From Clostridia bacterium (GTDB taxonomy: Bacteria > Bacillota > Clostridia > Oscillospirales > Acutalibacteraceae): a DNA stretch of 64,000 bases. Position 1 is the stretch's first letter, and every line of letters starts with the position of its first letter. Below the pieces are notes generated by a model, which did no database searches, was not told the DNA's origin, and saw only the letters and a program-made list of their open reading frames with translations. The translations under genes were made by a program, and so were the position numbers. The DNA lies in assembly GCA_017399175.1 (NCBI GenBank), contig JAFQEE010000043.1, positions 6,021 to 70,020 on the forward strand, written 5' to 3'. Of the stretch, positions 11,954 to 35,430 are shown one piece after another.

Positions 11954-13537
11954 TTATCCCAATGAATTTGTAACGCTTGTTGTGACGGTTGCCTTGTAAC
12001 AACTGAATTTTTCGTTAACATTTTTTGGTAATGTCTTTTGTGTCAAAAGACTTACAATTGGAACAAGTATAAGTCCGCCGACCATAGCAAATACACCTGA
12101 ATAAAGTGAATTTGTGAACACGAAGCTCAAGATTGGTGTTGTAGGAGTGAAAAGACCAACGCTGATTAAAAGTTGTACTATTTCAAGTCCTGTACCGAAA
12201 ACAAAGCTTGTAACAACAGCAGCCTTTGTGGTCTTTTTCCAATATAAACCGTATAAAAACGGAGCTAAGAATGCGCCTGCCAATGCACCCCAGGAAACAC
12301 CCATCATCTGTGCGATAAATACTGATTCTGCCCAGATTGTATCTTTAAGAATTGCAATTACAGCAGAAAGTGCGATGAAGAATACAATGAAAACTCGAAG
12401 AATGAAAATGCTCTTTTTATCGTCAACTTTTTGTTTCTTTTCAAGTCTTGGCTTGATAACATCAAGTGTAAGTGTTGATGAAGATGTCAGAACAAGCGAA
12501 GAAAGAGTTGACATTGATGCAGAAAGAACAAGTACAATAACGAGAGCAACAATAACGGGAGCTAAATCTGAAAGAATTGTAGGAACAACCTTATCAAACA
12601 TAACTGCTCCTGTTTCTGATATATAACCGTCTGCAACCATTTCTTCTTTGTAAAGTCTGCCAAAGCCACCAAGGAAGTAGCAACCGCCTGCAACAATAAT
12701 TGCAAAAAATGTTGAGATGATTGTACCTTTTTTGATTGAACCTTCGTCCTTGATTGAGTAGAATTTACCAACCATTTGCGGTAATCCCCAAGTACCCAAT
12801 GAAGTAAGCATTACAACAAAGAAAAGGAAAAGGGGATTAGGGCCGAACATTGAAGTGAATTCAGCACCTGCTTCTTGTGTAAGAGATGCTACAGCCTGAG
12901 TGAAACCACCATTTTTAACAAGAACGGCAGCAATAACTGCAACGATTCCCACAAGCATTATAATTCCTTGAATAAAGTCGTTGATTGCTGTTGCCATATA
13001 TCCGCCGAAAATAACATAAATACCTGTAAGAACAGCCATGATAATAACGATTACTGAATATGGAATATTGAATACATTATTAAAAAGAGAAGAAAGACCG
13101 TTGTAAAGTGAAGCGGTGTATGGAATAAGAAAAATGAATACTATTATAGATGCTACTATTTTGAGTGCCTTTGAATCGTATCTTTTTTCAAAGAAATCAG
13201 GCATTGTTTTTGAGTCAAGGTGCTGTGTCATAACTCTTGTTCTTCGACCAAGCACACTCCACGCAAGAAGTGAACCGATAAATGCGTTACCAAGACCAAT
13301 CCAAGTGGATGCAAGACCAAAGTTCCAACCAAATTGTCCTGCGTAACCAACAAAGATAACTGCAGAGAAATATGATGTACCGAATGCGAAGGCTGTAAGC
13401 CAGGGTCCGACACTTCGTCCACCAAGAACGAATCCGTCAACATTAGTTGCATTTTTTCTGCAATAAAAACCGACACCTATCATAAGTGCGAAGAAACATA
13501 TAAGCATTGGTATACTAATCATCATTGTTGTTGTCAT
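11954..13537 (-). CDS. Sodium:solute symporter family transporter
   Basis: About 13 TM segments with SSF-like N-terminus (GGRSVGPWLTAFAFGTSYFSA). ATG 13537 lies behind RBS AAGGAGTG. Confidence 0.85.
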   Translation of the reverse strand: MTTTMMISIPMLICFFALMIGVGFYCRKNATNVDGFVLGGRSVGPWLTAFAFGTSYFSAVIFVGYAGQFGWNFGLASTWIGLGNAFIGSLLAWSVLGRRTRVMTQHLDSKTMPDFFEKRYDSKALKIVASIIVFIFLIPYTASLYNGLSSLFNNVFNIPYSVIVIIMAVLTGIYVIFGGYMATAINDFIQGIIMLVGIVAVIAAVLVKNGGFTQAVASLTQEAGAEFTSMFGPNPLFLFFVVMLTSLGTWGLPQMVGKFYSIKDEGSIKKGTIISTFFAIIVAGGCYFLGGFGRLYKEEMVADGYISETGAVMFDKVVPTILSDLAPVIVALVIVLVLSASMSTLSSLVLTSSSTLTLDVIKPRLEKKQKVDDKKSIFILRVFIVFFIALSAVIAILKDTIWAESVFIAQMMGVSWGALAGAFLAPFLYGLYWKKTTKAAVVTSFVFGTGLEIVQLLISVGLFTPTTPILSFVFTNSLYSGVFAMVGGLILVPIVSLLTQKTLPKNVNEKFSCYKATVTTSVTNSLG

Positions 13538-13568
13538 TTTAATCACTCCTTTTTAAATAAACTTTTTC

Positions 13569-13597
13569 TTGACAAACAAGAGATAATGTGGTATATT
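13569..13597 (+). promoter_or_regulatory. Near-consensus sigma-A promoter (TTGACA-17-TGgTATATT) for the acyl-CoA synthetase/ior genes
   Basis: -35 at 13569-13574. Extended -10 TGG TATATT at 13589-13597. Confidence 0.6.
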
Positions 13598-13637
13598 TGC
13601 TTTAACGCTTTAAAGTTTAGCACTTTAAAGCAAATAT
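13593..13637. promoter_or_regulatory. 13-bp inverted repeat ATATTTGCTTTAA / TTAAAGCAAATAT overlapping the -10
   Basis: Arms at 13593-13605 and 13625-13637. The 19-nt spacer itself contains the direct repeat CTTTAAAG twice. Confidence 0.5.
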
Positions 13638-13741
13638 GTCAAGAGGGAATTGTAAAAAATTTCTTTTTATCGAATTCTATTGATTTTTCAGGGAATTTAA
13701 AGTAAAATAATCAAATATTGTAATTTTTGGAGAACTATGTT

Positions 13742-15376
13742 ATGACAATCGTACACTTACTTGAAAAAAATGCCCGTGAATTTCCAAATGATGTGGCATT
13801 GGTTGAAATTAATCCTGAACAACCTGAAACAAGACGAATTACATGGAGTGAATTTGAACTTGTTGAGCCGGGTGCAAGGCGTCCTTATCGTCGCGAAATC
13901 ACTTGGGGTGTGTTTGAAGAAAAAGCAAACAGATTTGCAAATATGCTTTCACAGAACGGAATTGGAAAGGGTAATAAGGTTGCAATACTTCTCATGAACT
14001 GTATTGACTGGTTACCTATATACTTTGGTATTCTTAAAACAGGTGCTTTGGTAGTGCCACTTAATTTCCGTTATTCTTCTGATGAAATTGATTACTGTCT
14101 TGACCTTGCTGAAGCTGATGTTCTCGTTTTCGGTAATGAATTTGTAGGACGAGTTGAGGCTGTTGCAGATAAAATCAGTAAAAAATGCAAACTTATTTAT
14201 TTTGGCGGAAGTTGTCCTGCTTTTGCTGATGATTATAACGAGCTTGTTTCAGAATGTTCAAGTTCATATCACGGATGTTGGCTTGAAGAATCCGATGATG
14301 CAGCAATTTACTTCTCATCAGGTACAACAGGCTTCCCAAAGGCGATTTTACATAATCACGAAAGCCTTATTCATTCTTGCCGTTGCGAACAGGCTCATCA
14401 CGGACAAACAAAGGACGACTGTTTCCTTTGTATCCCTCCGCTTTATCATACAGGTGCAAAAATGCATTGGTTTGGTAGCCTTTTAACGGGCTCAAAAGCA
14501 ATTATTCTTAAGGGTACACAGTCAAGAAATATTCTTAAGGTTGCAAGTGATGAAAAATGTACAATCGTATGGCTTCTTGTTCCTTGGGCGCAGGATATTC
14601 TCAATGCAATAGACAGCGGTGAAATTGATTTGAACGAATTTGATTTCTCAAACTGGAGACTTATGCACATCGGTGCACAGCCTGTACCACAAAGCCTTAT
14701 CAAGCGTTGGCTTGAATATTTCCCAAATCAGCAGTATGACACAAACTATGGTCTTTCCGAGTCAATCGGACCTGGTGCAGTTCATCTTGGTGTTGAAAAT
14801 GTTCACAAGGTTGGTGCAATCGGTGTTCCGGGTTATGGATGGCAGACAAAAATTGTTGACCCTGACGGAAACGAAGTGTCCCAAGGCGATGTTGGTGAAC
14901 TCTGTCTTAAAGGACCGGGTGTTATGACCTGCTACTATCGTGACGAAGAGGCAACAAAAGCAACACTTAAAGATGGTTGGCTTTTGACAGGGGATATGGC
15001 AATGCTTGATGAAGACGGCTTCATTTTCCTTGTTGACCGTAAAAAGGATGTTATCATTACAGGCGGTGAAAACCTTTACCCTGTACAGATTGAAAACTTT
15101 ATGGCGGCATACGAAAAAATCAAGGATGTTGCTGTTATCGGTCTTCCAGACCCTCGACTTGGTGAAATTGCAACTGCAATTATTGAAGTCAAAAAAGGTA
15201 TGACTTGCACAGAAGAAGAAATCAACGAATTCTGTATGAGCTTACCACGATATAAAAGACCTCGAAAGATTATTTTTGCAGATGTACCTCGTAATCCTAC
15301 AGGTAAAATTGAAAAACCAAAGCTTCGTAAAATGTACGGTGGCGAAGGTCTTGTTGATTCACAGAATAAATCATAA
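13742..15376 (+). CDS. AMP-forming acyl-CoA synthetase / acid-CoA ligase
   Basis: AMP-binding motif YFSSGTTGFPKAILHNH and C-terminal GKIEKPKLR. ATG 13742 lies 8 nt after GGAGA. Confidence 0.9.
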   Translation: MTIVHLLEKNAREFPNDVALVEINPEQPETRRITWSEFELVEPGARRPYRREITWGVFEEKANRFANMLSQNGIGKGNKVAILLMNCIDWLPIYFGILKTGALVVPLNFRYSSDEIDYCLDLAEADVLVFGNEFVGRVEAVADKISKKCKLIYFGGSCPAFADDYNELVSECSSSYHGCWLEESDDAAIYFSSGTTGFPKAILHNHESLIHSCRCEQAHHGQTKDDCFLCIPPLYHTGAKMHWFGSLLTGSKAIILKGTQSRNILKVASDEKCTIVWLLVPWAQDILNAIDSGEIDLNEFDFSNWRLMHIGAQPVPQSLIKRWLEYFPNQQYDTNYGLSESIGPGAVHLGVENVHKVGAIGVPGYGWQTKIVDPDGNEVSQGDVGELCLKGPGVMTCYYRDEEATKATLKDGWLLTGDMAMLDEDGFIFLVDRKKDVIITGGENLYPVQIENFMAAYEKIKDVAVIGLPDPRLGEIATAIIEVKKGMTCTEEEINEFCMSLPRYKRPRKIIFADVPRNPTGKIEKPKLRKMYGGEGLVDSQNKS

Positions 15377-15399: not shown

Positions 15400-17124
15400 A
15401 TGAAAAAATTAATGATAGGTAATCAGGCAGTCGCAGAAGGCTTGCACGATGGTGGTTTAGGTGTAGTTTCAAGCTATCCTGGTACACCATCAACTGAAAT
15501 TACAGAATTTTTAAGTAAATTTGATGATATTCACAGCGAATGGGCACCAAATGAAAAGGTTGCTTGTGAAGTTGCATTTGGTTCATCACTTGCAGGTGCG
15601 CGTTCTGCTTGTGCTATGAAGCACGTTGGTCTTAATGTGGCTGCAGACCCGCTTTTCACACTTTCATATACAGGTGTTAATGGCGGTCTTGTAATCTGCG
15701 TTGCTGATGACCCTGCAATGCATTCATCACAGAATGAACAGGATTCTCGTCACTATGCAATGGCAGCAAAAGTGCCAATGCTTGAACCTGCTGACTCAAT
15801 GGAAGCATACATATTTGCAAAAAATGCTTTTGAATTATCAGAAAAATTCGATACTCCTGTTCTTCTTCGTATGTGTACAAGAATTGCACACAGTCAGTCA
15901 ATTGTTGAAACAGGAGAAAAACAGCCTGCAACATTAAAGGATTATGAAAAAAATCCTGCAAAGTACATAATGGCACCTGCTAATGCTATCAAGCGTCATC
16001 CATTTGTTGAGGACAGAACATTAAGCCTTCAGGAATTAGCAGAAAACTGTGAATACAATGCTGTGGAAATGAACTCCGATGAAATCGGTATCATCACATC
16101 AGGCTGTTCATATCAGTATGTAAAAGAGGTAATGGGGGATAGTGCAAGCGTTCTTAAAATCGGTATGTCATATCCGTTACCTGTGAAACTTATTAAAGAC
16201 TTTGCATCAAAGGTTAAAACTCTTTATGTAATTGAAGAGCTTGACCCATTCATTGAAAATCATGTAAAAGCACTTGGTATAGATGTAATCGGTAAAGAGA
16301 AATTCTCAATATTAGGCGAATTTTCTCAAAACACAATCGCAAAAGCATTCGGTAAGGAATTACCTGAAAGTGTATCAGCAGATTCAGCAATTCCAAACAG
16401 ACCACCAATGATGTGTGCAGGTTGTCCGCACAGAGGTTTGTTCTATACTCTTGCAAAGAATAAGATTACTGCTCTTGGTGATATCGGTTGTTATACTCTC
16501 GGTTCTGCACCACCACTCAATGCTCTTGATTCAACTCTTTGTATGGGTGCATCAATTTCAGGTCTTCACGGCTTTAACCTTGCAAGAGGTAAGGACGCTG
16601 AAAGGAAGAGTGTTGCTGTTATCGGTGACTCAACATTTATGCATTCAGGTATGACAGGACTTGTCAATGTGGCATATAATGCTACAAATTCAACCGTAAT
16701 TATCGTTGATAACTCAATTACCGGTATGACAGGACATCAGCAGAACCCTACAACAGGTTATAACATCAAGGGTGACCCTGCTGCAAAGGTTGACCTTGAA
16801 GCGCTTTGTAAGGCTCTTGGTATTAATCGTGTGAGAGTTGTTGACCCATATGACCTTAAAGCTTGCGATACAGCAGTTAAGGAAGAATTAGCAGTAGAAG
16901 AACCATCAGTAATCATTTCTCGCAGACCATGTGTGCTTCTTAAATCAGTTAAACACGAAGCACCTTTGAAGGTTGATACAGATAAATGTAAGTCTTGCAA
17001 GAGATGTATGACACTTGGTTGTCCTGCAATCAGTATGAAAGACGGAAAAGCAAAGGTTGATGCAACATTGTGCGTAGGCTGTGGAGTTTGTAAACAGCTT
17101 TGTGCATTTGATGCTATTGTATAA
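15400..17124 (+). CDS. iorA: Indolepyruvate (arylpyruvate) ferredoxin oxidoreductase, alpha subunit
   Basis: TPP-enzyme N-terminus GNQAVAEG...SYPGTPSTEI. C-terminal 2x[4Fe-4S] motifs CKSCKRC...CP and CVGCGVC...C. Confidence 0.92.
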   Translation: MKKLMIGNQAVAEGLHDGGLGVVSSYPGTPSTEITEFLSKFDDIHSEWAPNEKVACEVAFGSSLAGARSACAMKHVGLNVAADPLFTLSYTGVNGGLVICVADDPAMHSSQNEQDSRHYAMAAKVPMLEPADSMEAYIFAKNAFELSEKFDTPVLLRMCTRIAHSQSIVETGEKQPATLKDYEKNPAKYIMAPANAIKRHPFVEDRTLSLQELAENCEYNAVEMNSDEIGIITSGCSYQYVKEVMGDSASVLKIGMSYPLPVKLIKDFASKVKTLYVIEELDPFIENHVKALGIDVIGKEKFSILGEFSQNTIAKAFGKELPESVSADSAIPNRPPMMCAGCPHRGLFYTLAKNKITALGDIGCYTLGSAPPLNALDSTLCMGASISGLHGFNLARGKDAERKSVAVIGDSTFMHSGMTGLVNVAYNATNSTVIIVDNSITGMTGHQQNPTTGYNIKGDPAAKVDLEALCKALGINRVRVVDPYDLKACDTAVKEELAVEEPSVIISRRPCVLLKSVKHEAPLKVDTDKCKSCKRCMTLGCPAISMKDGKAKVDATLCVGCGVCKQLCAFDAIV

Positions 17125-17139
17125 AGGAGGACGACAAAA

Positions 17140-17712
17140 ATGAAAACTGTTAGTGTTATGATTGTCGGTGTTGGCGGACAGGGTAGTCTTCTTGCATCAA
17201 AATTGTTAGGTCGTCTTCTCGTTGACGAAGGCTACGATGTAAAGGTTAGCGAAGTTCACGGTATGAGTCAGCGTGGTGGCTCAGTTGTAACTTATGTCCG
17301 TTTTGGCGAAAAGGTGTATTCACCAATTATCACAGACGGTGAAGCAGATATTATTATCTCATTTGAAAAGCTTGAAGCAGGCAGATATGCAAGCTATCTT
17401 AAAAAAGACGGTAAAATCGTTGTAAATACTCAACAGATTGACCCAATGCCTGTTATTATCGGTGCTGCTCAGTATCCTGAAAATGTACTTGATGAATTAA
17501 CTCAGAAGGGTGTAAGCGTTGATGCTCTTGATGCACTTTCACTTGCTGAACAGGCAGGTTCATCAAAGGCTGTTAACATCGTTTTGATGGGTAAAGCAGC
17601 AAAATATTTCGATATTCCATATGAAAGTTGGATTACAGCAATCGAAAATACAGTTGCACCTAAGTTTGTAGAAATGAATAAGAAAGCCTTTGAATTAGGC
17701 TACAACTCATAA
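17140..17712 (+). CDS. iorB: Indolepyruvate ferredoxin oxidoreductase, beta subunit
   Basis: GVGGQGSLLASKLL and HGMSQRGGSV motifs. Directly follows iorA. Confidence 0.9.
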   Translation: MKTVSVMIVGVGGQGSLLASKLLGRLLVDEGYDVKVSEVHGMSQRGGSVVTYVRFGEKVYSPIITDGEADIIISFEKLEAGRYASYLKKDGKIVVNTQQIDPMPVIIGAAQYPENVLDELTQKGVSVDALDALSLAEQAGSSKAVNIVLMGKAAKYFDIPYESWITAIENTVAPKFVEMNKKAFELGYNS

Positions 17713-17732: not shown

Positions 17733-17761
17733 TTGACTTTGAGAATTTAGTGTGCTAAAAT
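17733..17761 (+). promoter_or_regulatory. Sigma-A promoter (TTGACT-17-TGcTAAAAT) driving the T-box leader
   Basis: -35 at 17733-17738. Extended -10 at 17753-17761. Confidence 0.6.
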
Positions 17762-17774
17762 CTTAAAGTAATAA

Positions 17775-18047
17775 AGACGCTTGAGCGGAAACCAGTACCC
17801 GAAAATATCATTTTCAGAGAACTGCGGTTGGTGTGATGCAGTAATGTAAAGTCGGTGAATTCATTCCGTAAGTCGTTGGCTGAAGGTCTGTTGATTGTGT
17901 AGGTCAAACGGGTTCGACCGTTATATCGACAAGGGTGTGTTTGCACTCGGAGGCCGTTATCGTGAGGTAATGGTAAATAGAGGTGGTACCACGGGATTTT
18001 TCTCGTCCTCTGTGTTCCGAATTGGAATGCAGAGGACTTTTTGTTTT
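17775..18047 (+). promoter_or_regulatory. T-box riboswitch leader (apparent Phe/UUC specifier) with terminator
   Basis: Stem I elements AGTA...AGAGA...GGTTGGTG. Specifier-loop GAA-TTC-A at 17857-17863. T-box sequence AAATAGAGGTGGTACCACGG at 17975-17994. Terminator GTCCTCTG...CAGAGGAC plus TTTTTGTTTT at 18005-18047. Confidence 0.85.
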
Positions 18048-18099
18048 ACTTCTGCACTCCTTAAAACCCATAGCATATTGCAGAAAGGACGAATGTAAA

Positions 18100-19410
18100 A
18101 TGGAAAAACGTTATTATCAAAAAGAAATCGAAACCATGCCTGTTGAAGAAATTAAAAAACTTCAGTCAGAAAAATTGGTGAAACAGGTAAAGCATGTTTA
18201 TGAAAATGTGCCTTACTACAAGAATTTAATGGATGAAAAGGGTGTAACACCTGACGATATCAAAGGTATTGAGGATTTGCACAAACTCCCATTCCTTACA
18301 AAAGCAGATTTAAGAGATGCTTACCCTTACGGATTACTCGCAAAACCACTTAATGAGTGCGTTCGTATTCACTCAACATCAGGTACAACAGGCAGACGAG
18401 TTGTTGCTTTCTATACACAGCATGATGTTGACTTGTGGGAAGACTGCTGTGCTCGTGCAATCGTAGCGGCAGGTGGCTCAAATGAGGATGTTTTACAGGT
18501 GGCATACGGATACGGACTTTTCACAGGCGGTGCAGGTCTTCACGGTGGCGGTCATAAGGTAGGCTGTCTTACACTTCCTATGTCATCAGGTAACACAGAC
18601 CGTCAGATTCAGTTTATGATGGACTTAAATTCTACAATTCTCTGTTGTACACCATCTTATGCTGCATATATGGGTGAATCGTTGAAAGAACAGGGTTATA
18701 CACCTGACCAGATTCCTCTTAAAGCAGGTATTTTCGGTGCAGAGGCTTGGACAAACGAAATGCGTCATCAGATTGAAGAAACACTTGGAATCAAGGCTTA
18801 TGACATTTACGGACTTACAGAAACATCAGGTCCCGGTGTATCTTTTGAATGTGAAGAACAGACAGGTATGCACATTAACGAAGACCATTTCCTTGCTGAG
18901 ATTATCGACCCTGATACAGGTGAAGTTTTACCTGAAGGCAGTAAGGGTGAACTTGTATTCACAGCACTTGATAAAGAAGCATTCCCACTTCTTCGTTACC
19001 GTACAAGAGATATTTGTGTCCTCACTCGCGAAAAGTGTTCTTGTGGAAGAACATTCATTAAAATGGCAAAACCAATGGGCAGAAGTGACGATATGCTTAT
19101 TATCCGCGGTGTTAATGTATTCCCAAGCCAGATTGAAACAGTTCTTCTCAACGAAGGCTATCAGCCGAACTATCAAATTATCATTGACAGAGTTAAGAAT
19201 AATGATACATTTGATGTGCTTGTTGAAATGAATCCTGAAAAGTTCTCCGATACTGTCAGCGGTATCACAGCACAGGAAAAATCACTTGCAAATGCTATGA
19301 AAATTATGCTTGGTATCAATCCTGCAGTACACCTTGTTGCACCAAAGAGTATTGCTCGTAGCGAAGGTAAAGCAGTTCGTGTTGTTGATAAGCGTAAACT
19401 TTATGATTAA
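18100..19410 (+). CDS. paaK: Phenylacetate-CoA ligase family protein
   Basis: IHSTSGTTGRRVV adenylation motif and PaaK-type length and termini. Start moved to ATG 18100, downstream of the T-box terminator. Confidence 0.9.
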   Translation: MEKRYYQKEIETMPVEEIKKLQSEKLVKQVKHVYENVPYYKNLMDEKGVTPDDIKGIEDLHKLPFLTKADLRDAYPYGLLAKPLNECVRIHSTSGTTGRRVVAFYTQHDVDLWEDCCARAIVAAGGSNEDVLQVAYGYGLFTGGAGLHGGGHKVGCLTLPMSSGNTDRQIQFMMDLNSTILCCTPSYAAYMGESLKEQGYTPDQIPLKAGIFGAEAWTNEMRHQIEETLGIKAYDIYGLTETSGPGVSFECEEQTGMHINEDHFLAEIIDPDTGEVLPEGSKGELVFTALDKEAFPLLRYRTRDICVLTREKCSCGRTFIKMAKPMGRSDDMLIIRGVNVFPSQIETVLLNEGYQPNYQIIIDRVKNNDTFDVLVEMNPEKFSDTVSGITAQEKSLANAMKIMLGINPAVHLVAPKSIARSEGKAVRVVDKRKLYD

Positions 19411-19428: not shown

Positions 19429-19860
19429 ATGTCATTAAAACAGTTAACTATCTTTGTTGAAAATAAGCAGGGAACACTCGTAGATATCACAGATATCCTT
19501 GCAAAAAACAATGTTAATATGAGAGCACTTTCAATCGCAGATACTGAAGATTTCGGTATTCTTCGTCTTATCGTTGATAACAATGATGTTGCAACAAAGG
19601 CATTACATGATGCAGGATATCTTATCAAAATGACTGATGTTGTTGGTGTTAAAATCGGTGACCAGCCGGGCAAACTTTCAAAGGCACTTGAAGTCCTTGA
19701 CGAAGCAAAAATCAATATGGAATATCTTTACGCATTTATGGCTCGTACAGAAAAACACGCATATGTTGTTCTTCGTGTTGCTGATAATGACGCAGCAGAA
19801 AAAGCCCTCGAAAACGCAGGCTTCCATATGATTACCGACGCCGATGTTGATAAGTTATAA
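19429..19860 (+). CDS. ACT domain-containing protein (usual PaaK partner)
   Basis: Two ACT-like halves (LTIFVENKQGTLVDITDILAKNNVNM; VGVKIGDQPGKLSKALEVL). Confidence 0.85.
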   Translation: MSLKQLTIFVENKQGTLVDITDILAKNNVNMRALSIADTEDFGILRLIVDNNDVATKALHDAGYLIKMTDVVGVKIGDQPGKLSKALEVLDEAKINMEYLYAFMARTEKHAYVVLRVADNDAAEKALENAGFHMITDADVDKL

Positions 19861-34197: not shown

Positions 34198-35430
34198 ATG
34201 GCTGCAAAGAGCAATACAAAAAAGAAGAACGGATTTATAAATTCAATGTTCGCAAAAGGTTCAATTGATGTTCCTTTCTTCATCATACTTATGACAATAG
34301 TAACAGTAGGTCTTATAATGCTGTTTTCTTCAAGCTATACTTACAGTTATTACAATCGCGGAAGCAGTACGGAAATTTTTACAAGACAGTTAATCTATGC
34401 CGTAATCGGCATAGTGGCAATGTTCCTTGTGTCAAGAATAAGATATGAGTATTTCAGACTTATTGCATTGATTGGTGTGCCTGTATCGTACTTGTTACTC
34501 GTACTTGTTCTCTTTCTTCCCGATAGTGTTCAGCCGGGATTTTACCGTTGGATTGACCTTAAAGTGATTACATTCCAGCCATCAGAAATCGCAAAAATCG
34601 GCTTGATTTTAATTCTTGCCTTTCTTCTTGAAAAGAATCATAAGGCAATTACGGGAAAAGTACCGAGTGAAATGACACTCTGTAAAAAAATTGACCAGTA
34701 TTCAAAGGGACGATTTGTAATATACAAATCATTCACAAGCGTCATAATATACGGAATGCTTATTCTTTCATTCGCAGTACTCGTATATCTTGAAAATCAC
34801 CTTTCGGGTGCACTCCTTATGCTTGCAATCGGTGTTGTAATGCTTTGGTTAGGCGAGGCAAAAGGCAGATGGTTTGCAATCGGCGGTGCTTTGGTAGTTG
34901 TAGCAGCCATTGTTCTTATAGCAAATCCTGAAATTCTTAAAGAATATGCAGGTGAGCGAATTACATCATGGCTCGATAAAGACTCCGACCCACTTGGTGT
35001 CCGTTGGCAGACAAATAACTCGCTTTATGCCATTGGTTCAGGTGGATTTTTAGGAACAGGGCTCGGCCAGTCAAAACAGAAGCATCTTTTCGTTTCTGAA
35101 CCACAGAACGACTTTATCTTCTCAATCATCTGCGAGGAATTGGGATTTGTGGGTGCAACAGCAATCATTCTTCTTTTCGCTGCACTTATATACAGAGGAA
35201 TAAAAATCGGTATGAATGCAAAAGACCGTTTCGGTGCATTACTTGCAATGGGAATCGTTTTTCAGGTAGGTATTCAGGTAGCACTCAACATCGGTGTTGT
35301 TACTGATTTGCTTCCTAATACAGGTATTTCACTTCCATTCTTCTCATACGGCGGTACATCTCTCGTTATCTTGCTTGCAGAAATGGGTATGGTACTTTCA
35401 ATTTCACGAAGTTCAAGTCGGCGTGAATAA
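34198..35430 (+). CDS. ftsW: SEDS family peptidoglycan polymerase FtsW/SpoVE
   Basis: QPSEIAKI and LPNTGISLPFFSYGGTS signatures. Confidence 0.92.
   Translation: MAAKSNTKKKNGFINSMFAKGSIDVPFFIILMTIVTVGLIMLFSSSYTYSYYNRGSSTEIFTRQLIYAVIGIVAMFLVSRIRYEYFRLIALIGVPVSYLLLVLVLFLPDSVQPGFYRWIDLKVITFQPSEIAKIGLILILAFLLEKNHKAITGKVPSEMTLCKKIDQYSKGRFVIYKSFTSVIIYGMLILSFAVLVYLENHLSGALLMLAIGVVMLWLGEAKGRWFAIGGALVVVAAIVLIANPEILKEYAGERITSWLDKDSDPLGVRWQTNNSLYAIGSGGFLGTGLGQSKQKHLFVSEPQNDFIFSIICEELGFVGATAIILLFAALIYRGIKIGMNAKDRFGALLAMGIVFQVGIQVALNIGVVTDLLPNTGISLPFFSYGGTSLVILLAEMGMVLSISRSSSRRE

What the first reader, a model, noticed from the sequence alone, without database searches (positions are those of the whole stretch)
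17733..18047. T-box with an apparent UUC (Phe) specifier placed inside the cluster, between iorB and paaK
The leader has the canonical parts: an S-turn AGTA, the AGAGA bulge, the distal GGTTGGTG loop, the T-box sequence AAATAGAGGTGGTACCACGG and a terminator. In the specifier loop the 3' side reads GAA-TTC-A (17857-17863). The triplet before the conserved purine is UUC, the Phe codon. The variable base of the UGGN bulge is U (17984-17987), which predicts an A discriminator base, as bacterial tRNA-Phe normally has. T-boxes usually control aminoacyl-tRNA synthetases, biosynthesis genes or transporters, so one controlling a phenylacetate-CoA ligase/ACT pair is uncommon. It has its own promoter (17733-17761), so paaK-ACT can be regulated separately from iorAB.
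Basis: partly seen in the sequence, partly recalled or inferred. Interest (0 to 1): 0.6.

Follow-up and report, generated by a model that had tools for sequence, protein, structure and literature searches.

The report
Phenylalanine T-box switch before phenylacetate-CoA ligase
A standard tRNA-sensing RNA switch set to phenylalanine, with its own promoter, sits in front of a phenylacetate-activating enzyme and a small ACT sensor-type protein in a ruminant-gut Clostridia genome, which suggests the cell turns scavenged phenylacetate into phenylalanine when that amino acid runs short.

Summary
Rfam RF00230 matches window 17771-18013 at 106.9 bits (cut-off 93). The model alignment puts UUC (17860-17862) in the specifier position, followed by A17863. 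The bulge is UGGU (17984-17987). tRNA-Phe(GAA) in ten related genomes carries A73-CCA.

A terminator (18005-18037 plus a T-run) competes with the antiterminator. A TTGACT-17-TGnTAAAAT promoter (17733-17761) is conserved in all ten genomes with the same gene order.

Across 51 homologous paaK leaders, UUC is kept in 50 and UGGU in all 51. The canonical fold is 90% paired, and 33 of 57 pairs show compensatory changes.

The linkage is not rare. Phe T-box→paaK(-ACT) occurs in 56 species-level genomes from at least 12 GTDB families. In eight other genomes a Tyr (UAC) T-box drives the homologous acs-(symporter)-iorAB-paaK-ACT operon.

Best reading: Phe starvation induces PaaK. PaaK activates phenylacetate for IorAB reductive carboxylation to phenylpyruvate, which is then converted to Phe. 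This would be a salvage route, since pheA and chorismate synthase are also present.

The mechanism is a canonical T-box; only the target gene is new. No paper in the searchable library links T-boxes to paaK. This scan has already noted the same wiring in at least 44 other genomes.

The parts
17733..17761 (+). Sigma-70-type promoter of the leader: -35 TTGACT (17733-17738), 17-nt spacer, extended -10 TG (17753-17754) + TAAAAT (17756-17761)
   Evidence: Consensus scan, 10/12 plus TG. TTGAC[T/A]-17-TGnTAAAAT is conserved in all 10 loci with the acs-iorAB-[T-box]-paaK layout. Weak hint: a metatranscriptome contig from a ~94%-identical relative begins at 17768 and runs to 18219.
17771..18013 (+). 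T-box leader (Rfam RF00230), full length
   Evidence: 106.9 bits vs gathering 93, E 1.2e-22, model 1-219. The canonical structure is supported by covariation in 51 homologues.
17776..17874 (+). Stem I: base helix GAC/GUC (17776-78/17872-74), helix CGGAA/UUCCG (17786-90/17864-68), specifier loop (AGUA 17794-97; GAA 17857-59), AG bulge AGAGA 17816-20, distal loop GGUUGGUG 17826-33
   Evidence: The helix that closes the specifier loop is paired in 100% of cells, and 3 of its 5 pairs change on both sides.
17860..17863 (+). Specifier UUC (17860-17862), Phe codon, followed by the conserved purine A17863
   Evidence: The CM alignment puts UUCA at the last four loop positions. TTC occurs in 50 of 51 homologous leaders. 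The position matches the TBDB rule, nt 2-4 from the 3' end of the specifier bulge (PMC7778990).
17975..18011 (+). T-box sequence and antiterminator: AAAUAGAGGUGGUACCACGG (17975-94); helix AGAGG/CCUCU (17979-83/18007-11); 7-nt bulge with UGGU (17984-87); helix ACGGGA/UCUCGU (17991-96/18001-06)
   Evidence: UGGU occurs in 51/51 homologues. It pairs with the A73-CCA of tRNA-Phe found in 10 relatives.
18005..18047 (+). Intrinsic terminator: 15-pair stem 18005-18037 plus TTTTTGTTTT. It is mutually exclusive with the antiterminator, sharing 18005-18011.
   Evidence: Terminator scan; MFE fold; conserved, with G-U/compensatory changes, in 51 leaders.
18100..19410 (+). paaK: PaaK-type AMP-forming arylacetate (phenylacetate)-CoA ligase, 436 aa
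   Evidence: Pfam AMP-binding + AMP-binding_C_2. TIGR02155 PaaK 523 bits, below the equivalog cut-off of 646. PDB PaaK 2y27 and 4r1l, E about 1e-124 and 1e-121.
19429..19860 (+). ACT-domain-pair protein, 143 aa, 18 nt after paaK; presumed co-transcribed small-molecule sensor
   Evidence: Pfam ACT_8 E 3e-27. PDB 2f06 (uncharacterised Bacteroides protein) E 1.4e-27. It follows paaK in nearly all 200 loci examined.
15400..17712 (+). iorA (15400-17124) and iorB (17140-17712): indolepyruvate/arylpyruvate:ferredoxin oxidoreductase, directly upstream
   Evidence: TIGR03336 732.5 bits > cut-off 650.9; NF005325 281.8 > 230.
13727..15376 (+). Second AMP-forming acyl-CoA ligase ('acs'), first gene of the acs-iorAB unit
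   Evidence: Pfam AMP-binding + AMP-binding_C. In 8 other genomes its orthologue heads an operon behind a Tyr (UAC) T-box.
11954..13546 (-). Divergent Na+/solute symporter (SSF family), candidate arylacetate importer
   Evidence: Pfam SSF. It is 68% identical to the symporter inside the Tyr-T-box operon of L065 and 42% identical to the Tyr-T-box-controlled symporter of L040.

Best explanation
This is a canonical transcriptional T-box riboswitch specific for tRNA-Phe. It is transcribed from its own promoter, and probably also by read-through from acs-iorAB. It gates transcription of paaK and the ACT gene.

Proposed mechanism:
1. When tRNA-Phe(GAA) is charged, the 18005-18037 terminator forms and transcription stops before paaK.
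2. When Phe is scarce, uncharged tRNA-Phe pairs its anticodon with UUC (17860-62) and its free A73-CCA end with UGGU (17984-87). This stabilises the antiterminator, and RNA polymerase reads into paaK-ACT.
3. PaaK then activates imported phenylacetate to phenylacetyl-CoA.
4. IorAB reductively carboxylates phenylacetyl-CoA with reduced ferredoxin and CO2 to phenylpyruvate.
5. An aminotransferase makes Phe.

This would be a salvage route that runs beside the de novo shikimate/pheA route. The ACT protein probably senses an amino acid (Phe) and tunes the pathway at the protein level.

Shown here: the RNA elements, their conservation and covariation, the matching tRNA-Phe end in relatives, and the gene identities. 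Inferred: tRNA-dependent read-through, the substrate, the direction of flux and the ACT role.
For: - T-box identity: Rfam match above cut-off.
- Specifier: UUC in 50/51 homologous leaders and UGGU in 51/51.
- Structure: 90.2% paired, 33/57 pairs with compensatory changes, 0/500 shuffles as high.
- The UGGN rule holds in this genome: tyrS UGGU with tRNA-Tyr A73, thrS UGGA with tRNA-Thr U73, leuA UGGU with tRNA-Leu A73.
- The genome's own pheS leader also uses UUC and UGGU.
- tRNA-Phe(GAA) in 10 relatives ends A73-CCA.
- Terminator and promoter are present and conserved.
- Direction argument 1: T-boxes switch genes on under starvation for the cognate amino acid. The same logic recurs independently. 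A Phe T-box precedes paaK in two PaaK lineages (82-91% and ~55% identity to this one). A Phe T-box precedes iorAB-paaK-ACT in L072. A Tyr T-box precedes acs-(symporter)-iorAB-paaK-ACT in 8 genomes and a symporter in 2.
- Direction argument 2: PaaK is an AMP-forming ligase, which favours CoA-ester synthesis. PMC13285125 makes this argument for Bacteroides IOR plus ligase.
- Precedents: phenylacetate→Phe in rumen bacteria (Allison 1965, cited in PMC7356843). Aryl acids plus IOR act as a second aromatic amino-acid pathway in Methanococcus maripaludis (Porat et al., as summarised in PMC4162585).
- Four of five genomes with a stand-alone T-box-paaK-ACT have a bona fide iorA elsewhere.
- Metatranscriptome contigs from relatives span the leader, the terminator and the start of paaK.
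Against: - No experiment supports any step. tRNA-dependent antitermination, the PaaK substrate and the flux direction are all inferred.
- PaaK scores below the NCBIfam equivalog cut-off (523 vs 646 bits), so its substrate could be another aryl acid.
- The genome has pheA and chorismate synthase, so the route is not essential.
- Many close relatives carry the same acs-iorAB-paaK-ACT cluster with no T-box at all.
- One genome with T-box-paaK-ACT (G397) shows no iorA above cut-off.
- B. thetaiotaomicron IOR has been reported to work in the Phe→phenylacetate direction (Zhu et al. 2023, as cited in PMC13285125).
- This assembly lacks the tRNA-Phe gene, so the discriminator match rests on relatives.
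- The RNA evidence consists of contigs from ~90-95% identical relatives. Contigs cannot show transcript ends.
Confidence: 0.7

Rival explanations
1. The T-box is real and Phe-specific, but the ligase acts on a different substrate. Candidates are another aryl or acyl acid such as 4-hydroxyphenylacetate, indoleacetate or phenylpropionate. Alternatively it makes phenylacetyl-CoA for a purpose other than Phe synthesis.
For: PaaK scores below the TIGR02155 equivalog cut-off. Related ligases next to IOR accept PA, HPA and IA (PMC13285125). A second ligase ('acs') in the same cluster shows that substrates may be shared out between the two.
Against: The closest solved structures are true phenylacetate-CoA ligases at E ~1e-124. 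A Phe-specific switch on this ligase, against Tyr-specific switches on the acs-headed operons, fits phenylacetate for PaaK. No other use of phenylacetyl-CoA is encoded nearby.
Confidence: 0.15
2. The cluster is catabolic (Phe → phenylpyruvate → phenylacetyl-CoA → phenylacetate). On this reading the T-box only couples expression to Phe status for some other reason, for example to spare Phe or as a relic of recombination.
For: IOR is classically a peptide-fermentation enzyme, and B. thetaiotaomicron IOR contributes to phenylacetate production (as cited in PMC13285125). Many relatives lack the T-box.
Against: A T-box induces genes when the cognate tRNA is uncharged. Switching on Phe breakdown during Phe starvation would be counter-productive. 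AMP-forming ligases do not conserve ATP in the CoA-ester→acid direction (argument in PMC13285125). Independent Phe and Tyr T-boxes on homologous clusters across at least 12 families argue for selection.
Confidence: 0.08
3. The leader is a decaying or non-functional T-box copy that no longer regulates anything.
For: One relative (L044) has lost the Stem I half, and one (L052) has UGC in place of UUC. This shows that decay or change does occur.
Against: The window's copy matches the full model above cut-off. All functional motifs are invariant across 51 leaders, helices keep pairing through compensatory changes, and the promoter is conserved.
Confidence: 0.03

Closest known systems
Phe-specific T-box leader of pheS-pheT (classical Firmicute case; in this genome at contig C23:16426-16649)
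   Same: Same RNA family (131.5 bits), same UUC specifier, same UGGU bulge, and the same terminator/antiterminator logic.
   Different: The two leaders are only ~51% identical, so this is not a recent copy. The target is a CoA ligase plus an ACT protein rather than the aminoacyl-tRNA synthetase.
Tyr (UAC) T-box leaders before acs-(Na+ symporter)-iorAB-paaK-ACT operons, or before the symporter alone, in other gut and rumen Clostridia (L065, L177, L181, L182, L186, L188, L191, L195; L040, L046)
   Same: They control the homologous aryl-acid gene cluster. In L046 the Tyr leader and the Phe leader share a nearly identical 3' half (69% identity overall), so they are paralogues.
   Different: The specifier is UAC rather than UUC, a one-base difference. 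The switch sits at the head of the operon rather than between iorB and paaK. In this window the acs-iorAB unit has no T-box.
Aryl-acid / indolepyruvate oxidoreductase second pathway for aromatic amino acids in Methanococcus maripaludis (Porat et al., as summarised in PMC4162585), and phenylacetate→Phe in rumen bacteria (Allison 1965, cited in PMC7356843)
   Same: The proposed chemistry is the same: arylacetate → arylacetyl-CoA → reductive carboxylation by IOR → arylpyruvate → amino acid. It runs beside a de novo route.
   Different: No T-box or other RNA switch is described there. The genes and their regulation in bacteria were not defined in those sources.
Bacteroides IOR co-located with an AMP-forming arylacetate-CoA ligase (PMC13285125; PDB 4r1l PaaK, 2f06 ACT-pair protein)
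   Same: The same trio of protein types is present. PaaK matches 4r1l at E 2e-121 and the ACT protein matches 2f06 at E 1.4e-27. The authors suggest an anabolic role because the ligase is AMP-forming.
   Different: Bacteroidota have no T-boxes. There the direction is argued from enzymology only and is disputed. Here the regulatory signal itself points to the direction.

Membership tests
T-box leader (Rfam RF00230) | Covariance-model score at or above the curated gathering score over the full model | tested here: met
   106.9 bits vs 93, model 1-219/219, E 1.2e-22.
T-box leader (Rfam RF00230) | Stem I with specifier loop (S-turn AGUA/GAA), AG bulge and distal loop motifs that dock the tRNA elbow | tested here: met
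   AGUA 17794-97, GAA 17857-59, AGAGA 17816-20, GGUUGGUG 17826-33. AGAGA, GGUG and the GAA motif are invariant or nearly invariant in 51 leaders.
T-box leader (Rfam RF00230) | Specifier triplet at nt 2-4 from the 3' end of the specifier loop, in a register fixed by the closing helix | tested here: met
   UUC 17860-62 + A17863. The closing helix is 100% paired and 3/5 of its pairs covary. The rule is as stated in PMC7778990.
T-box leader (Rfam RF00230) | Conserved T-box sequence forming an antiterminator with a 7-nt bulge carrying UGGN, mutually exclusive with an intrinsic terminator | tested here: met
   17975-18011 antiterminator; 18005-18037 terminator plus T-run; they share 18005-18011.
T-box leader (Rfam RF00230) | Cognate tRNA with matching anticodon and a discriminator base complementary to N of UGGN | tested here: met
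   tRNA-Phe(GAA) with A73-CCA in 6 same-genus and 4 same-order genomes. The gene is not assembled in this genome, so this is a proxy.
T-box leader (Rfam RF00230) | Read-through stimulated specifically by uncharged cognate tRNA | not testable with these tools
   Needs in-vitro transcription or a reporter assay.
Phenylacetate-CoA ligase PaaK (TIGR02155) | Score above the equivalog cut-off | tested here: not met
   523.1 bits vs cut-off 646.3. It is still the best family, and PDB PaaK structures match at E ~1e-124. I therefore call it PaaK-type, with the substrate inferred.
Phenylacetate-CoA ligase PaaK (TIGR02155) | Phenylacetate as the preferred substrate | not testable with these tools
   Needs an enzyme assay.
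Indolepyruvate:ferredoxin oxidoreductase IorAB | Alpha and beta subunits above the equivalog cut-offs | tested here: met
   TIGR03336 732.5 > 650.9; NF005325 281.8 > 230.

The most novel reading that the evidence does not exclude
Gut and rumen Clostridia may carry a T-box-governed aryl-acid salvage regulon that has not been described. In it the specifier divides the work. Phe T-boxes would switch on PaaK plus the ACT protein for phenylacetate. Paralogous Tyr T-boxes, one base different in the specifier, would switch on a second CoA ligase, a Na+ symporter and IOR for 4-hydroxyphenylacetate. If so, the widespread 'IOR/PaaK' clusters, usually annotated as aromatic amino-acid breakdown, run anabolically in these bacteria. 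They would then consume phenylacetate rather than produce it.
Probability: 0.45. Interest if true: 0.65.

Novelty: new member of a known kind. Interest (0 to 1): 0.5.

Why it matters
The riboswitch is textbook; the interest lies in what it controls.

A starvation-induced switch for Phe on a phenylacetate-CoA ligase is regulatory evidence about the direction of the IOR/PaaK pathway. Sister Tyr switches on the homologous operon add to this. Recent literature leaves the direction open. Zhu et al. 2023 report Phe→phenylacetate in Bacteroides, while PMC13285125 suggests an anabolic role.

The finding also gives a gene-level and regulatory handle on the 1965 observation that rumen bacteria build Phe from phenylacetate.

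Phenylacetate is the precursor of host phenylacetylglutamine. It therefore matters for gut-microbiome metabolic models which bacteria consume it and under what signal.

The switch also offers a simple annotation rule: a Phe or Tyr T-box next to a ligase, symporter or IOR cluster marks aryl-acid salvage.

Tried and rejected
- ARAGORN on the whole assembly found no tRNA-Phe. The Val-Asp-Phe-Gly-Cys tRNA cluster seen in relatives is not assembled, so the discriminator had to be checked in relatives.
- My first tRNA-Phe pattern used a wrong spacer length and found nothing. The corrected pattern worked.
- The single-sequence MFE fold and the RNAalifold consensus did not recover the base of Stem I; RNAalifold paired AGAGA with a distant segment. 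I therefore tested the canonical structure explicitly.
- Literature: no paper in the searchable library joins 'T-box' with paaK or phenylacetate-CoA ligase. Two T-box regulon surveys (PMC2494555, PMC3766115) and the TBDB paper do not mention it. Vitreschak et al. 2008 could not be read, so prior mention there cannot be excluded.
- RNA evidence: only three metatranscriptomes held small parts of the stretch. All are contigs from relatives 90-95% identical. They show that the leader-paaK junction is present in RNA libraries. They cannot show transcript ends, transcript levels or regulation.
- I considered that the cluster might be the only route to Phe. I rejected this because pheA and chorismate synthase are present.
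- I considered a T-box ahead of acs-iorAB in this window. None is there, and none is in seven close relatives that lack the internal T-box.
- T-box detection in the 200 fetched loci used the conserved GGUGGNACCRCG motif with at most one mismatch, checked by Rfam on 24 loci. Operon heads beyond the fetched 4.5 kb would be missed, so all counts are lower bounds.

Full report
**What is there.** Rfam finds one RNA family in the 64-kb window. It is a full-length T-box leader at 17771-18013 on the + strand, scoring 106.9 bits against a gathering score of 93.

- AGUA 17794-97
- AGAGA 17816-20
- GGUUGGUG 17826-33
- GAA-UUC-A 17857-63
- the T-box sequence 17975-94, with UGGU at 17984-87
- a 15-pair terminator 18005-37 followed by TTTTTGTTTT

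The terminator shares 18005-11 with the antiterminator (17979-83/18007-11 and 17991-96/18001-06). This is the standard two-state design.

A promoter lies just upstream: TTGACT-17-TAAAAT with an extended -10 TG, at 17733-61.

**Genes around the leader.**

| Coordinates | Strand | Gene |
|---|---|---|
| 11954-13546 | - | Na+/solute symporter |
| 13727-15376 | + | AMP-forming acyl-CoA ligase, 'acs' |
| 15400-17124 | + | iorA (TIGR03336, above cut-off) |
| 17140-17712 | + | iorB (above cut-off) |
| 17771-18013 | + | the T-box leader |
| 18100-19410 | + | PaaK-type ligase |
| 19429-19860 | + | ACT-pair protein |

- The PaaK-type ligase starts at ATG 18100. It scores 523 bits on TIGR02155, below the equivalog cut-off of 646. 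It matches solved PaaK structures at E ~1e-124.
- The ACT-pair protein matches Pfam ACT_8 and PDB 2f06.

**Specifier.** The covariance-model alignment places UUCA in the last four positions of the 3' side of the specifier loop, immediately before helix CGGAA/UUCCG.

I collected 51 non-identical homologous paaK leaders from other genomes.
- The triplet is UUC in 50 of them; one, L052, has UGC.
- The next base is A in 21 and C in 30.
- The bulge is UGGU in all 51.

With the canonical T-box structure imposed on that alignment:
- 90.2% of cells pair, against 32-53% when partners are slid by 1-3 columns.
- 33 of 57 pairs show changes on both sides.
- No shuffle out of 500 reaches the observed values.
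- The helix that fixes the register of the specifier loop is paired in every sequence, and three of its five pairs covary.

The position matches the published rule, nt 2-4 from the 3' end of the specifier bulge, with UUC the preferred Phe specifier (PMC7778990).

**The tRNA.** The draft genome is 2.11 Mb in 72 contigs and 96.9% complete. It has no tRNA-Phe gene, and also lacks Val, Asp, Gly-GCC and Cys.

In six same-genus and four same-order genomes, tRNA-Phe(GAA) sits in a Val-Asp-Phe-Gly-Cys cluster and always ends A73-CCA. That end is complementary to UGGU.

The UGGN rule can also be checked inside this genome:
- tyrS has UGGU and tRNA-Tyr has A73.
- thrS has UGGA and tRNA-Thr has U73.
- leuA has UGGU and tRNA-Leu has A73.
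- The trp leader has UGGU and tRNA-Trp has G73, which gives a wobble pair.

The genome's pheS leader also uses UUC and UGGU.

**Promoter and transcription unit.** TTGAC[T/A]-17-TGnTAAAAT is conserved in all ten genomes that share the acs-iorAB-[T-box]-paaK-ACT layout. In many genomes the unit [T-box]-paaK-ACT stands alone, away from iorAB. It is therefore an independent transcription unit that happens to lie next to iorAB here.

No + strand terminator lies between iorB and the leader. Transcripts from the upstream promoter would also be subject to the T-box.

Metatranscriptome contigs from relatives 90-95% identical cover the leader-paaK junction. One begins at 17768, seven bases after the -10 box. 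Contigs cannot prove transcript ends, so this is only a hint.

**Distribution.** Eighty species-level relatives were found with PaaK. They are Acutalibacteraceae, Oscillospiraceae and 'Ruminococcus' MAGs, mostly from ruminant guts. Among them:
- 31 have a Phe T-box directly before paaK. Eight of these have the window's layout, and most of the rest stand alone.
- L044 keeps only the 3' half of a leader.
- Many have the same five-gene cluster with a ~30-nt iorB-paaK gap. Seven of these were checked with Rfam and have no T-box.
- L072 has a UUC T-box (86 bits, below the gathering score) before iorA-iorB-paaK-ACT.

In an even draw of 400 Clostridia genomes, 267 of the 399 scored have a PaaK homologue. 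I fetched 121 loci from this draw.
- 20 of the 29 best matches (79-90% identity overall; the 20 are 82-87% identical) carry the UUC T-box before paaK-ACT. They span at least nine GTDB families.
- A second PaaK lineage, ~55% identical and without an ACT gene, also has a UUC T-box (L209, L216, L217, L224).
- L223 has a UUC T-box 630 nt upstream of paaK.
- Seven operons acs-iorA-iorB-paaK-ACT (PaaK ~62% identical) are headed by a T-box whose specifier is UAC (Tyr).
- From the first set, L065 adds T-box(UAC)-acs-symporter-iorAB-paaK-ACT.
- L040 and L046 have T-box(UAC)-symporter directly upstream of T-box(UUC)-paaK-ACT.

In L046 the two leaders are 69% identical with nearly identical 3' halves. 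They are paralogues whose specifiers differ by one base.

The window's divergent symporter is 68% identical to the one inside the L065 operon.

**Interpretation.** T-boxes turn genes on when the cognate tRNA is uncharged. Phe and Tyr switches placed repeatedly on an arylacetate-CoA ligase, IOR and symporter cluster make sense if the cluster supplies these amino acids. The route would be arylacetate → arylacetyl-CoA (AMP-forming ligase) → reductive carboxylation by IOR → arylpyruvate → amino acid.

This chemistry was shown by labelling in rumen bacteria (Allison 1965, cited in PMC7356843). It was shown genetically in Methanococcus maripaludis (Porat et al., as summarised in PMC4162585).

A 2026 paper argues from the AMP-forming ligase that Bacteroides IOR may be anabolic. 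Earlier work showed that it contributes to phenylacetate production (PMC13285125). The direction is therefore an open point, and the T-box bears on it directly.

The genome also has pheA and chorismate synthase, so this is a salvage route and not the only one.

Four of five genomes with a stand-alone T-box-paaK-ACT have acs-iorAB or iorAB elsewhere. One, G397, shows no iorA above cut-off.

The role of the ACT protein is inferred only from its family and from its near-constant position after paaK. The likely role is amino-acid sensing.

**Novelty.** The RNA is an ordinary member of a well-known family. What seems undescribed is the target.

No paper in the searchable library links T-boxes to paaK. 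Two regulon surveys and the TBDB paper do not mention it. Vitreschak et al. 2008 could not be read.

This scan has already noted the same Phe-T-box/paaK and Tyr-T-box/acs-ior wiring in at least 44 other genomes. My results here agree with those notes and were obtained independently on this window.

I file it as a new member of a known kind, of moderate interest.

Noticed in passing
L046:3687-3932 and L046:5658-5904; L040:3666-3913 and L040:5634-5884: Two T-boxes lie in tandem transcription units. A Tyr (UAC) leader precedes a 518-aa Na+/solute symporter, followed directly by a Phe (UUC) leader before paaK-ACT. The two leaders share a nearly identical 3' half (69% identity overall), so they are paralogues with diverged Stem I, and their specifiers differ by one base.
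   Followed up: partly
L052:5655-5933: One paaK leader that is otherwise of the Phe type has UGC (Cys codon) in place of UUC. This could be a one-base specificity change, a decaying switch or an assembly error.
   Followed up: no
L044:~770-1060: The 5' (Stem I) half of this paaK leader is replaced by unrelated sequence, while the Stem II to terminator part is intact. It looks like a truncated or rearranged T-box.
   Followed up: no
own genome, contig C53:34554-35059 (- strand), outside the window: The Trp (UGG) T-box before trpB is reported by Rfam as two separate pieces (34952-35059 and 34554-34715) about 236 nt apart. This suggests an insertion or an unusually long linker between Stem I and the antiterminator.
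   Followed up: no
whole assembly (G000): The assembly holds only about 30 tRNA genes. The Val-Asp-Phe-Gly-Cys tRNA cluster present in same-genus genomes is not assembled here.
   Followed up: yes
window 13569-13726: The acs-iorAB unit has a near-consensus promoter (TTGACA-17-TATATT, 11/12) but no T-box, whereas orthologous operons elsewhere carry a Tyr T-box.
   Followed up: no
G397 (class sample; locus L109): This 1.5-Mb genome has T-box(UUC)-paaK-ACT but no iorA above the TIGR03336 cut-off, only VOR/POR-like hits. Either another 2-oxoacid oxidoreductase does the carboxylation or the gene is unassembled.
   Followed up: partly
window 17768-18219: A 460-nt bovine-gut metatranscriptome contig (~94% identical) begins exactly at 17768, 7 nt after the -10 box, and runs through the terminator into paaK.
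   Followed up: partly
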